A program made the translations under genes and the position numbers. Shown here one piece after another: positions 11,872-15,538 of a DNA stretch of 64,000 nucleotides. The stretch comes from Escherichia coli. Its GTDB lineage: Bacteria; Pseudomonadota; Gammaproteobacteria; Enterobacterales; Enterobacteriaceae. The first letter of the stretch is position 1, and each line of letters opens with the position of its first letter. Below the pieces are notes generated by a model. The model worked only from the letters and a program-made list of their open reading frames with translations. It made no database searches and had not been told where the DNA came from. The stretch lies in assembly GCF_030384885.1 (NCBI RefSeq), contig NZ_CP128613.1, one strand, 5' to 3'.

Positions 11872-14800
11872 ATGGCTTCGACAAATGCGCAGCAAATAAA
11901 AAATAATGATCAAAACTCTTTATGCGGTCTGGGTGACAAAATACGCCGCCTGGCCGCCGGAGTTTGTTTATTCACACAATTTTTTTTCCCCGTCATCGCG
12001 ACGGCACAAAATGTGGTACACGCTAACCCGCAGTGAAGGTGTTCAGGATATCACTCTGTCTGACTGGACAGATAACGGGGATGGTAGCTACACACAGATG
12101 CTGACTGCAGGAACGACTTCAGGTTCAGTAACACTGACACCGCAACTTAACGGTGAGAGTGCGGTAAAAGAATCCATCGTCGTTAATATCGTCCCTGTTG
12201 TCTCATCCCGCGACCATTCTTCAATATCCATAGATAACATATTGTATTATGCCGGAGACGACATCAAAGTCAGGGTAGAACTGAAAGACGACAACAATAA
12301 ACCGGTTGAATATCAAGAAGACGCGTTGGTAAAAGCCGTCACTGTCGAGAACAGCAAACCAGGCGCCACGGTTGTCTGGCACGAAGAGCATCCGGGCGTT
12401 TATGCAGCGAATTATCCGGCCCATAAGCAAGGAGCAGCCCTGAGGGCACAACTTAGCCTTCACAACTGGAATACTCCTCTGCAATCGCATATTTATAATA
12501 TCGAAGCAAACCAGAATAAGGCTCACGTCGCCACATTATCCGCAACGAATAATGACGTTTACGCCGATAAAAAGACGTTTAATACCATCACTATTAACGT
12601 CACTGATGAGAGTGATAATCCCCTGAGAAATCATCAGGTCACCTTTAAGAATGAGAAAGGAAGCGCGGAATTTGTAGAACCGACGCAGCAAAATACTGAT
12701 GCACATGGTGTTGCCACAATCAACATGATAAGTCAGGTTGCGGAAGAAAATACGATTAGCGCTACGCTGCCAAATGGTTCTACTCAACGGGTAACTGCGA
12801 AATTTGTTAGCGATTCGAATACGCCAAAACTCAAACAACTGGTTGCCGCGCCAGATACCATTAGTGCTGGTAATAGCCAGGGTAGTACCCTGACCGCCAC
12901 CGTCACAGACTTTCATAACAACCCGTTAAAAGATATGAAAGTGAATTTTGTGGCACCAACTGACTCGCAACTGGACAACACGACCGCCACAACTGACCAG
13001 TCCGGGATTGCGCGGGTGCACCTGACCAGTTCAAAAGCAGGTAACTATACCGTCGATGCCTCGCTTGAGGCGGATAAAAATATTCACCAGTCGGTTACGG
13101 TTACCGTGGTCCCAAACAGGGAACAATCGGTAATTATTTTGAATGCCGGATCGGGCAGTACGATTGCTAACAATACAGATACCGTTACCCTGACTGCCAG
13201 TGTGAAAGATGTTTATGGACACTCACTACCGGATGAGGATGTGAAATTTACCTTGCCAGCATCTATGACAGGAAACTTCACGCTAAGTAGTGACACCGCT
13301 CGCACCGATTCAAACGGCAATGCCGTGGTCACATTGCGAGGCACAAAAGCGGGTGAGTTTACAGTGACGGCGACACTGAGCAGAAATAATACCAGTGCTA
13401 ATCAGCTAGTCTATTTTATTGGGGATACAAGCAGCGCGCAGCTCCAGCCGCTGACTGCCTCATTAAATACCATAGTTGCTGGCAACAGTACGGGGAGTAC
13501 CCTGACAGCAACGATCCTGGACGCTTACCAAAATCCGCTTAAAGACCAACAGGTCACTTTCCAGAGTAACGATGTCACACTAAGCGGAACCGAAGTCACC
13601 ACCAATACGCAGGGTCAAGCGACGGTAATAATGACCAGCAATATTGCCGGACAACATAACGTCGTGGTGAGCCGGAAAGCGCAATCATCCGATAATAAAA
13701 CGTTTAGTTTATCAGTGCTCCCGGATGAAAGTTCGGCGAAGATAATAAGTATAACCGGAGCCGAAAAAACGATAATGGTTGGCGAAAACATCACGCTACG
13801 AATACACGTACAGGATGCGTTTAATAACGTCATAGCCGGTCAACGCGTCAGATTAAGTGCGCTGCCAACCGCTAACATTACGATAGACGATACGGCTTAC
13901 ACCGATAATAACGGCTATGCGTACGTTAACCTTATCAGCACCCAGCCTGGGGTCTATCAGGTGACAGCAACGCTGGACAATAACAGTAGTCGTAAAGTTG
14001 ACGTGAGTGTGGCAAAGGGCAAACTCGAGTTAACATCATCGAAGCCAGAAACCACGGTCCATAACAGTGAAGGTATTACACTGACCGCAACGGCAAGAAA
14101 TATTCAGGGTGAATTGATGCCGGGGCAAATTATCACCTTTAGCGTAACACCTGATGGGGCAACGCTAAGCAATACAGGGGAAATCCTGACTGATCAGTCA
14201 GGTCAGGCCAAAGTGACGCTGACCAGTGACAAAGTCAATGTATATACCGTTACGGCCACAATGGGCAAAGACGTTCCCGTTCAGAGCCAGGTGACGGTTG
14301 CGGTTAAGGCTGATGCTACAACGGCACATGTTGTGAGTGTCGTGGCTTCTCCTGACACCATAATCGCCGACGGGGTTGATAGCAGCACCATCACTTCACG
14401 AGTAGAAGATGATTATGGATTCCCGGTTGAAGGTGTCGACGTTAGTTACAGCTTAGACACCAAAGGCAGCCCGGTGATTAATAATCCAACTACGCGTACC
14501 GATCAGTCCGGGCAAGTCACGGCGACAATAACAGGTACATTGGCAGAAGCTCTAATTGTCAATGTTCAGGTCCCTGGCACAGTCCACAAATCCGCAGCCA
14601 TTACATTGATTCCTGGTACGGCAGATGAAAGTAAATCAACATTGAAATCTAGCGTTAGCTCTTTTATGGCTGACTTCCAGGAGAGCGCGACACTTACGTT
14701 AATATTGCAAGACAAGTACGGTAACCCGATAGTGACGTCTGATCATCTGGAATTTGTCCAGTCAGGTGCCTACGTGAACCTCCTGAAGTTGAGCAATATT

Positions 14801-15538
14801 GATTACAGCCAAAGAAATTATGGCGAGTACACCGTCACTGTCACTGGCGGCGTAGAGGGCAGAGCGACTCTCATTCCTATGCTGAACGGTGTTCATCAAG
14901 CAAACTTAAGCATATCACTGGATCTTGTCCGCTCAATAAAAGACATGCACGGTCATGTAACAGTCAACAACCATACCTTCACAACGGCTACATTCCCCAG
15001 TGAAGGTTTTATAGGGGCGTACTACACACTTAATGATGACAACTTTGAAGCGGGTAAAACCGTTAGTGATTATATGTTCACAAGTTCACAGAGTTGGGTG
15101 TCTGTCGATGCTTCAGGTAAAGTTTCTTTCACAAATACCGGCGACCAAACTTCAGTCGTAATAAGCGCTGTTCCCAGACAAGGAGGTACAACCTACCAGA
15201 CATTAATTAAGCTGAAAGGCTGGTGGGTGAATCATGGGAATCAAACCAATATCTGGCTAACTGCCAATGCGTTCTGCAACGCGAAAAGTGATGGATATAA
15301 TCTTCCTGGCGTCGCACATTTAACGTCTGGCGAAAACAAACGCACGTTGGGATCGCTATATGGTGAGTGGGGGAACGTTGGGGAGTTTTCCAGTGATTCG
15401 CAATTTACCGCGGGTGCTTACTGGACCAATCAACAGGATGATTACAATAGACACGTCTATGTGCAGATGCTGACGGGCAGGATTGGAAGCGACGCAGATT
15501 CCAGCGCTCAACTAACTGCCTGCCGTAAATCACTTTAA
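11872..15538 (+). pseudogene. intimin/invasin-family (inverse autotransporter, YeeJ-like) adhesin remnant: signal peptide in one frame, then 1210-aa Ig-like (Big_1) passenger with C-terminal lectin-like domain in another; the beta-barrel translocator is absent
   Basis: The ATG at 11872 has a ggaagg RBS and encodes MASTNAQQIKNNDQNSLCGLGDKIRRLAAGVCLFTQFFFPVIATAQNVVHANPQ-stop (signal-peptide-like). The 11906-15538 frame encodes repeated Ig-like modules (GSTLTATV...DQSGIARVHLTSSKAGNYTV). No room exists for the ~450-aa LysM/barrel domain. Confidence 0.5.

What the first reader, a model, noticed from the sequence alone, without database searches (positions are those of the whole stretch)
11872..15538. 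Intimin/invasin-family adhesin that has lost its beta-barrel: signal peptide joined out of frame to the Ig-like passenger
A well-supported start (ggaagg RBS, ATG at 11872) encodes a typical signal peptide that ends at a TGA at 12031-12033. A different frame carries 1210 aa of Big_1-type Ig-like repeats with a C-terminal lectin-like domain, starting with a segment (EGVQDITLSDWTDNGDGSYTQ...) that in E. coli inverse autotransporters such as YeeJ (my recollection) follows the beta-barrel. Only 245 bp separate yjiJ from this gene, so the translocator domain was deleted; the gene is probably a pseudogene, unless the passenger is expressed by other means.
Basis: partly seen in the sequence, partly recalled or inferred. 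Interest (0 to 1): 0.5.

Follow-up and report, generated by a model that had tools for sequence, protein, structure and literature searches.

The report
Deletion-inactivated iatD adhesin gene
This is the known E. coli surface-adhesin gene iatD, which in this clone has lost 1,574 bases, including the outer-membrane barrel it needs for export, leaving an ordinary recent pseudogene.

Summary
Window 11872-15538 is iatD, the inverse autotransporter (type Ve) adhesin between yjiJ and kptA, named and characterised by Goh et al. 2019. E. coli 2013C-4282 differs from the window by 6 SNPs in 48.4 kb and carries the intact 5,241-bp, 1,746-aa gene. The window lacks exactly 1,574 bp of it.

- **Junction:** the deletion joins codon 52 to codon 576/577 at a 2-bp (AA) microhomology, window 12025-12026.
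- **Lost:** the LysM region, the whole beta-barrel (IAT_beta, aa 148-423), the first Ig domain and about 40 aa of the next.
- **Left:** a 54-codon signal-peptide ORF (11872-12036) and, in the +1 frame, codons 577-1746 (12026-15538). These encode Big_1 repeats and an invasin D4-D5-like lectin tip.

The allele is real. Six independent public assemblies that I read carry the identical junction. It is also rare: 0 of 5,426 complete E. coli genomes have it, although about 12% carry iatD. Other lineages inactivate iatD by frameshift (O157:H7) or IS insertion.

Small corrections: the TGA is at 12034-12036, not 12031-12033, and the first 40 aa of the 1,210-aa ORF are out-of-frame signal-peptide sequence. 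This is ordinary gene decay and of low interest.

The parts
10483..11661 (+). yjiJ (MFS transporter), upstream neighbour that fixes the locus
   Evidence: ORF; annotated yjiJ at the same position in 2013C-4282
11861..11866 (+). GGAAGG ribosome-binding site of iatD
   Evidence: Sequence; 5 nt upstream of the annotated iatD start
11872..12036 (+). Leader ORF of 54 codons. It holds the complete IatD signal peptide (codons 1-51 unchanged), then N-P-Q and TGA at 12034-12036, created by the frameshift at the deletion junction
   Evidence: this exact 54-aa product is found on at least 8-11 public contigs
11980..11987 (+). T8 homopolymer inside the signal-peptide coding region, also present in the intact allele. 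It is the only plausible slippage site upstream of the junction
   Evidence: T8 is invariant in six other assemblies of the allele
12025..12026 (+). Deletion junction: the AA microhomology where 1,574 bp of the intact gene (L004 12025/12027 to 13598/13600; codon 52 to codon 576) are missing
   Evidence: Base-by-base comparison with the intact allele
12026..15538 (+). IatD passenger remnant in the +1 frame: codons 577-1746 plus stop. It comprises a partial Big_1 domain, then Big_1/Invasin_D3 Ig-like repeats, then an invasin D4-like and C-type-lectin-like tip. It is 100% identical to the intact allele of 2013C-4282
11906..15538 (+).
12011..15538 (+). 1,175-aa ORF as called by gene finders in public assemblies. 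It starts at ATG 12011, has no convincing Shine-Dalgarno sequence and overlaps the leader ORF by 26 nt
14651..15436 (+). C-terminal region homologous to Yersinia invasin D4-D5 (Ig-like domain plus C-type-lectin-like domain)
   Evidence: phmmer against PDB entry 1CWV, E 2.4e-12; weak Invasin_D4 and Intimin_C hits
15719..16291 (-). kptA (RNA 2'-phosphotransferase), downstream neighbour

Best explanation
The region is a recently inactivated allele of the known E. coli inverse autotransporter gene iatD. One illegitimate, microhomology-level deletion of 1,574 bp joined codon 52 to codon 576/577. Codon 52 lies just after the signal peptide. Codon 576/577 lies about 40 residues into the first Pfam-detected Big_1 domain of the passenger (aa 537-631). 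The deletion removed the LysM region, the entire beta-barrel translocator with its linker, and the barrel-proximal Ig domain. Because 1,574 is not a multiple of 3, the signal-peptide frame stops after 54 codons, and the remaining 1,170 passenger codons lie in the +1 frame. An inverse autotransporter passenger reaches the surface only through its own barrel. Whatever is translated therefore cannot be displayed, and the locus is a pseudogene. Shown: the deletion, its exact junction, the domains lost, and its clonal inheritance. Inferred: the deletion mechanism (replication slippage or illegitimate recombination) and the absence of any functional product.
For: - The locus yjiJ-iatD-kptA is syntenic with annotated intact iatD.
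- The window differs from 2013C-4282 by 6 SNPs in 48.4 kb plus one 1,574-bp gap, with no differences inside the remnant.
- The junction is mapped to an AA microhomology. The left site is GCTAAACCCCAGATGA and the right site is GCAAACCCGCAGTGA.
- The intact protein has IAT_beta at aa 148-423 (E 5e-107). It aligns to the invasin and intimin barrel crystal structures 4E1T and 4E1S over aa 185-430.
- The remnant has no IAT_beta hit, and the deleted segment is nowhere else in the window.
- Six independent Logan assemblies carry the identical junction and 4,057 identical bases. Their flanks differ from the window by 0-3 SNPs, and one has an IS110-family insertion upstream.
- Full-length IatD is surface-displayed and promotes biofilm when overexpressed (PMC6714894).
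Against: - No expression data exist for this allele.
- The 3.5-kb passenger ORF is still fully open, and gene finders call it from ATG 12011. That is expected for a very young deletion and does not prove silence.
- I could not inspect reads directly.
Confidence: 0.95

Rival explanations
1. The gap is an assembly artefact, a collapsed or mis-joined contig, and the strain really has intact iatD.
For: The passenger is made of repeated Ig-like domains, which can confuse assemblers. No complete genome among 5,426 shows the deletion.
Against: The junction has only 2 bp of homology, and the intact gene contains no long direct repeats. The identical junction is found in at least six separately assembled sequencing runs, whose flanks differ by 0-3 SNPs and in one case by an IS insertion.
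Confidence: 0.01
2. The barrel-less passenger is still produced. One route is a leaderless cytoplasmic 1,175-aa protein from ATG 12011, coupled to translation of the overlapping 54-codon leader ORF. The other is loss of one U by slippage in the T8 run, which would fuse the signal-peptide core to the passenger.
For: The ORF is open for 3.5 kb. ATG 12011 lies 26 nt upstream of the leader's stop. A T8 run sits upstream of the junction, and losing one T would put the passenger in frame.
Against: There is no Shine-Dalgarno sequence before ATG 12011 or 11906. A T7 variant would destroy the ATA/VHA cleavage region. T8 is invariant in all seven sequences. Without the barrel neither product can reach the surface. 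The open ORF is explained by the youth of the deletion: there are no substitutions in the remnant, against 6 SNPs in 48 kb genome-wide.
Confidence: 0.04
3. The deletion was IS-associated. An IS3-family insertion like the one in strains LR-58-1, E04 and MB52 sat about 10 bp from the right end of the deletion. It was then lost together with 1.56 kb of upstream gene sequence by imprecise excision. This changes only the route to the pseudogene, not the outcome.
For: In LR-58-1 a 1,258-bp IS3-family element with a 3-bp target duplication is inserted at intact-gene positions L001 4988-4990. The deletion's right end is at L001 4999-5001. That is a roughly 0.5-1.5% coincidence in a 5.2-kb gene.
Against: No IS remnant is left at the junction. 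The nearest relative, at 6 SNPs per 48 kb, has an intact IS-free gene. The IS-bearing strains are more distant, with 54 mismatches in 6.8 kb against 2013C-4282.
Confidence: 0.07

Closest known systems
IatD, inverse autotransporter of E. coli (EcSMS35_4876; Goh et al. 2019, mSphere, PMC6714894)
   Same: Same chromosomal locus (yjiJ-iatD-kptA), same start codon and signal peptide. The passenger is 100% identical to the intact allele of strain 2013C-4282 and about 90% identical in DNA to the common alleles.
   Different: It lacks codons 52-576 (LysM, beta-barrel, first Ig domain) and is frameshifted, so it cannot be a functional IatD.
YeeJ, E. coli inverse autotransporter adhesin
   Same: Same architecture in the intact form: signal peptide, LysM, barrel, Big_1 repeats and lectin-like tip. 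The deleted iatD segment matches yeeJ at about 78% nucleotide identity.
   Different: It is a different locus and a paralogue, not an orthologue.
Yersinia invasin and EPEC/EHEC intimin
   Same: The barrel of intact IatD aligns to 4E1T and 4E1S (E 3e-81 and 7e-68). The C-terminus of the remnant aligns to invasin D4-D5.
   Different: IatD has a much longer passenger. NCBIfam intimin scores are far below the family cut-offs. No receptor is known.
Other iatD pseudogene alleles (O157:H7 frameshift; IS3 and IS2 insertions)
   Same: All are independent inactivations of the same gene. The O157:H7 allele also ends just after the signal peptide, with a stop at codon 67. IS insertions are found in LR-58-1, E04, MB52, MFDS1019527, PT62 and LP5-1.
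   Different: Here the lesion is a 1.57-kb deletion that physically removes the translocator, so reversion is impossible.

Membership tests
iatD orthologue (allele of the E. coli iatD locus) | Position between yjiJ and kptA, with near-identity to annotated iatD | tested here: met
   synteny, and 100% identity outside the deletion to the iatD of 2013C-4282
Functional inverse autotransporter (type Ve secretion; intimin/invasin family) | N-terminal Sec signal peptide in frame with the rest of the protein | tested here: not met
   The signal peptide is present but ends in a 54-codon ORF; the passenger is in the +1 frame
Functional inverse autotransporter (type Ve secretion; intimin/invasin family) | 12-stranded beta-barrel translocator (Pfam IAT_beta, PF11924) | tested here: not met
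   No IAT_beta hit in the remnant. The intact allele has it at aa 148-423, inside the deleted segment. No copy exists elsewhere in the window
Functional inverse autotransporter (type Ve secretion; intimin/invasin family) | Periplasmic LysM domain (present in the large members YeeJ, IatC and IatD) | tested here: not met
   The LysM-like stretch of the intact protein (aa 78-99; E 0.014, below the Pfam cut-off; described by Goh et al.) lies in the deleted segment
Functional inverse autotransporter (type Ve secretion; intimin/invasin family) | C-terminal passenger of tandem Big_1 Ig-like domains | tested here: met
   Big_1 E 7e-115 with 7 stretches; Invasin_D3 E 5e-78 with 9 stretches
Functional inverse autotransporter (type Ve secretion; intimin/invasin family) | C-type-lectin-like capping domain | tested here: met
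   Aligns to invasin 1CWV residues 213-462 (D4-D5), E 2.4e-12. The Intimin_C hit is weak (E 0.006) and below cut-off
Functional inverse autotransporter (type Ve secretion; intimin/invasin family) | Surface display of the passenger | not testable with these tools
   Shown experimentally only for full-length IatD from SMS-3-5 (PMC6714894)

The most novel reading that the evidence does not exclude
The 3.5-kb passenger remnant is not dead. It is translated from ATG 12011 by coupling to the 54-codon leader ORF, or after slippage in the T8 run. The resulting barrel-less Ig-repeat/lectin protein would have a new cytoplasmic or periplasmic role, or would be exported in trans by a paralogous barrel such as YeeJ's.
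Probability: 0.03. Interest if true: 0.4.

Novelty: already known. Interest (0 to 1): 0.1.

Why it matters
It matters little beyond strain typing. The finding shows that one clone, close to the human stool isolate 2013C-4282, has irreversibly lost the IatD adhesin. It adds a deletion to the list of independent iatD inactivations: the O157:H7 frameshift and several IS insertions. Together these suggest that IatD is dispensable, or counter-selected, in several lineages. The exact junction sequence is a convenient clone-specific marker.

Tried and rejected
- **Junction in reference genomes:** I scanned the GTDB species-representative genomes for the 35-nt junction and found no match. The allele is not in any reference genome.
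- **Deletion allele in complete genomes:** none of the 5,426 complete E. coli genomes has it. Every full-coverage hit is split into two or more pieces spanning 5,773 bp or more, mostly 5,775.
- **Relocated barrel:** the barrel could have moved rather than been lost. blastn and tblastn of the deleted segment against the whole window found nothing.
- **Homologous recombination:** I looked for long direct repeats in the intact gene that could explain the deletion. There were only short, low-identity matches.
- **Promoter and terminator scans:** the number of sites did not exceed chance.
- **O157:H7 frameshift and the T8 run:** the O157:H7 frameshift does not lie in the T8 run. It is at codons 60-64.
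- **Published pseudogene forms:** Goh et al. 2019 does not mention iatD pseudogenes or truncations.
- **Not run:** I did not scan the metagenome collection or predict a structure, because neither could change the verdict.

Full report
**Observation.** The window carries GGAAGG at 11861-11866, followed 5 nt later by ATG 11872. This opens a 54-codon ORF, MASTNAQQIKNNDQNSLCGLGDKIRRLAAGVCLFTQFFFPVIATAQNVVHANPQ, ending in TGA at 12034-12036. By inspection the sequence looks like a long autotransporter-type signal peptide: a basic n-region, a hydrophobic core and ATA/VHA cleavage motifs. The +1 frame holds a 1,210-aa ORF at 11906-15538. Pfam finds 7 Big_1 stretches (E 7e-115) and 9 Invasin_D3 stretches (E 5e-78) in it, but no IAT_beta barrel. 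Its last 300 aa align to Yersinia invasin D4-D5 (1CWV, E 2.4e-12).

**Identity.** A megablast against 5,426 complete E. coli genomes identifies the gene as iatD, "inverse autotransporter IatD", located between yjiJ and kptA. Goh et al. 2019 (PMC6714894) named iatD in strain SMS-3-5 (5,241 bp). They described a signal peptide, a LysM domain, a beta-barrel, Big1 repeats and a C-type lectin cap. They also showed that the overexpressed protein is surface-located and promotes biofilm. About 639 of 5,426 complete genomes (12%) carry iatD.

**The lesion.** The best match, E. coli 2013C-4282 (NZ_CP027579.1), has an intact 5,241-bp, 1,746-aa iatD.
- Over 48.4 kb the window differs from that genome by 6 SNPs and one gap of exactly 1,574 bp. 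There is no difference inside the iatD remnant.
- Base-by-base extension places the junction at an AA dinucleotide, window 12025-12026.
- The left site in the intact gene reads ...CACGCTAAACCCCAGATGA and the right site ...CACTGCAAACCCGCAGTGA. The window reads ...CACGCTAACCCGCAGTGA.
- This is an illegitimate deletion with 2 bp of strict microhomology inside a slightly longer imperfect match. The intact gene has no long direct repeats that could have driven homologous recombination.

**What was lost.** The deletion runs from codon 52 to codon 576. In the intact protein:
- Pfam places IAT_beta at aa 148-423 (E 5e-107).
- The crystal-structure barrels of invasin (4E1T) and intimin (4E1S) align to aa 185-430.
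- A LysM-like stretch lies at about aa 78-99 (weak, below cut-off; described by Goh et al.).
- The first Pfam-detected Big_1/Invasin_D3 domain spans aa 537-631.

The clone therefore lost LysM, the whole translocator, the barrel-proximal Ig domain and the first 40 residues or so of the next domain. It kept the full signal peptide. Because 1,574 leaves a remainder of 2 on division by 3, the signal-peptide frame terminates at once (N-P-Q-stop). Codons 577-1746 (window 12026-15535) lie in the +1 frame. The deleted segment is not elsewhere in the window.

**Real or artefact.** No complete genome carries the deletion, and the junction is absent from the GTDB representative genomes. However, the exact 54-aa leader product and the exact 1,175-aa ORF called from ATG 12011 are both in the public protein collection, each on 8 contigs. 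A contig look-up with the 54-aa leader read 11 contigs carrying it. I read six Logan assemblies from different sequencing runs (L005-L010).
- All six have the identical junction, the same T8 run and 100% identity wherever they overlap the 4,057-bp reference; one contig ends after 3,973 bp.
- Their flanks differ from the window by 0-3 SNPs, and one has an IS110-family insertion upstream.

The deletion is a genuine allele inherited within a clone. It is very young, since no further decay is visible.

**Consequence (inferred).** Type Ve passengers are exported through their own N-terminal barrel. That is established knowledge of the intimin/invasin family, and full-length IatD is surface-located. 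Without the barrel and out of frame with the signal peptide, the remnant cannot be displayed.
- Possible internal starts (ATG 11906 and 12011) lack a Shine-Dalgarno sequence and would give a leaderless cytoplasmic protein.
- Loss of one U in the T8 run (11980-11987) would restore the frame. It would also replace the cleavage region with SPSSRRHKMWY..., and the product would still have no translocator.
- T8 is invariant in all seven sequences.

The locus is best described as a pseudogene.

**Context.** iatD is inactivated independently in other lineages.
- O157:H7 carries indels at codons 60-64 that give a stop at codon 67.
- LR-58-1 carries a 1,258-bp IS3-family insertion with a 3-bp target duplication; E04 and MB52 show the same one-piece match from query position 420 and the same split annotation.
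- MFDS1019527 carries IS2, and PT62 and LP5-1 carry an IS3-family element.

The LR-58-1 insertion site lies only about 10 bp from the right end of this deletion. That coincidence could point to a hotspot or an IS-associated origin. The nearest relative, however, is intact and IS-free, and no IS scar remains. I therefore give the IS route low weight.

**Verdict.** The gene is known, and the allele is an ordinary, recent, clone-specific deletion pseudogene. Novelty: already known. Interest: low.

Noticed in passing
L003 4738-5995 (E. coli LR-58-1; E04 and MB52 show the same match pattern); corresponds to window ~12019: A 1,258-bp IS3-family element with a 3-bp target duplication interrupts iatD only about 10 bp upstream of the point where this window's deletion ends. 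This may be a hotspot or a coincidence; no IS scar is present in the window.
   Followed up: partly
L002 3273-8514 (E. coli O157:H7 BB24-1): The O157:H7 iatD allele is also a pseudogene. Three indels at codons 60-64 (net +1) give a stop at codon 67, again just after the signal peptide. In that record yjiJ (internal stop) and kptA (frameshifted) are also annotated as pseudogenes.
   Followed up: partly
window 15559-15590 and 15610-15710: A perfect 12-bp hairpin (AAAGGATACCCT-tttgcg-AGGGTATCCTTT) lies just after the iatD stop. It is followed by two oppositely oriented REP-like palindromic units, a BIME-like arrangement. This stretch matches several places in almost every E. coli genome (median 7 places per genome).
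   Followed up: no
window 7231-9312: This is a pentapeptide-repeat protein gene, annotated as the T3SS effector EspX6 in O157:H7. It lies next to an SdiA-regulated-domain gene upstream of yjiJ. This fits the window strain being very close to the human stool isolate 2013C-4282.
   Followed up: no
L006 1-401 (Logan SRR35948513): One isolate or sample carrying the same iatD deletion has an IS110-family transposase replacing the 5' part of yjiL, about 5.5 kb upstream. This shows ongoing IS activity within the clone.
   Followed up: no
window 6399, 7461, 16460, 34476, 36890, 45193: These are the only six SNPs between the window and 2013C-4282 over 48.4 kb. Position 16460 lies in the kptA-yjiH intergenic region.
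   Followed up: no
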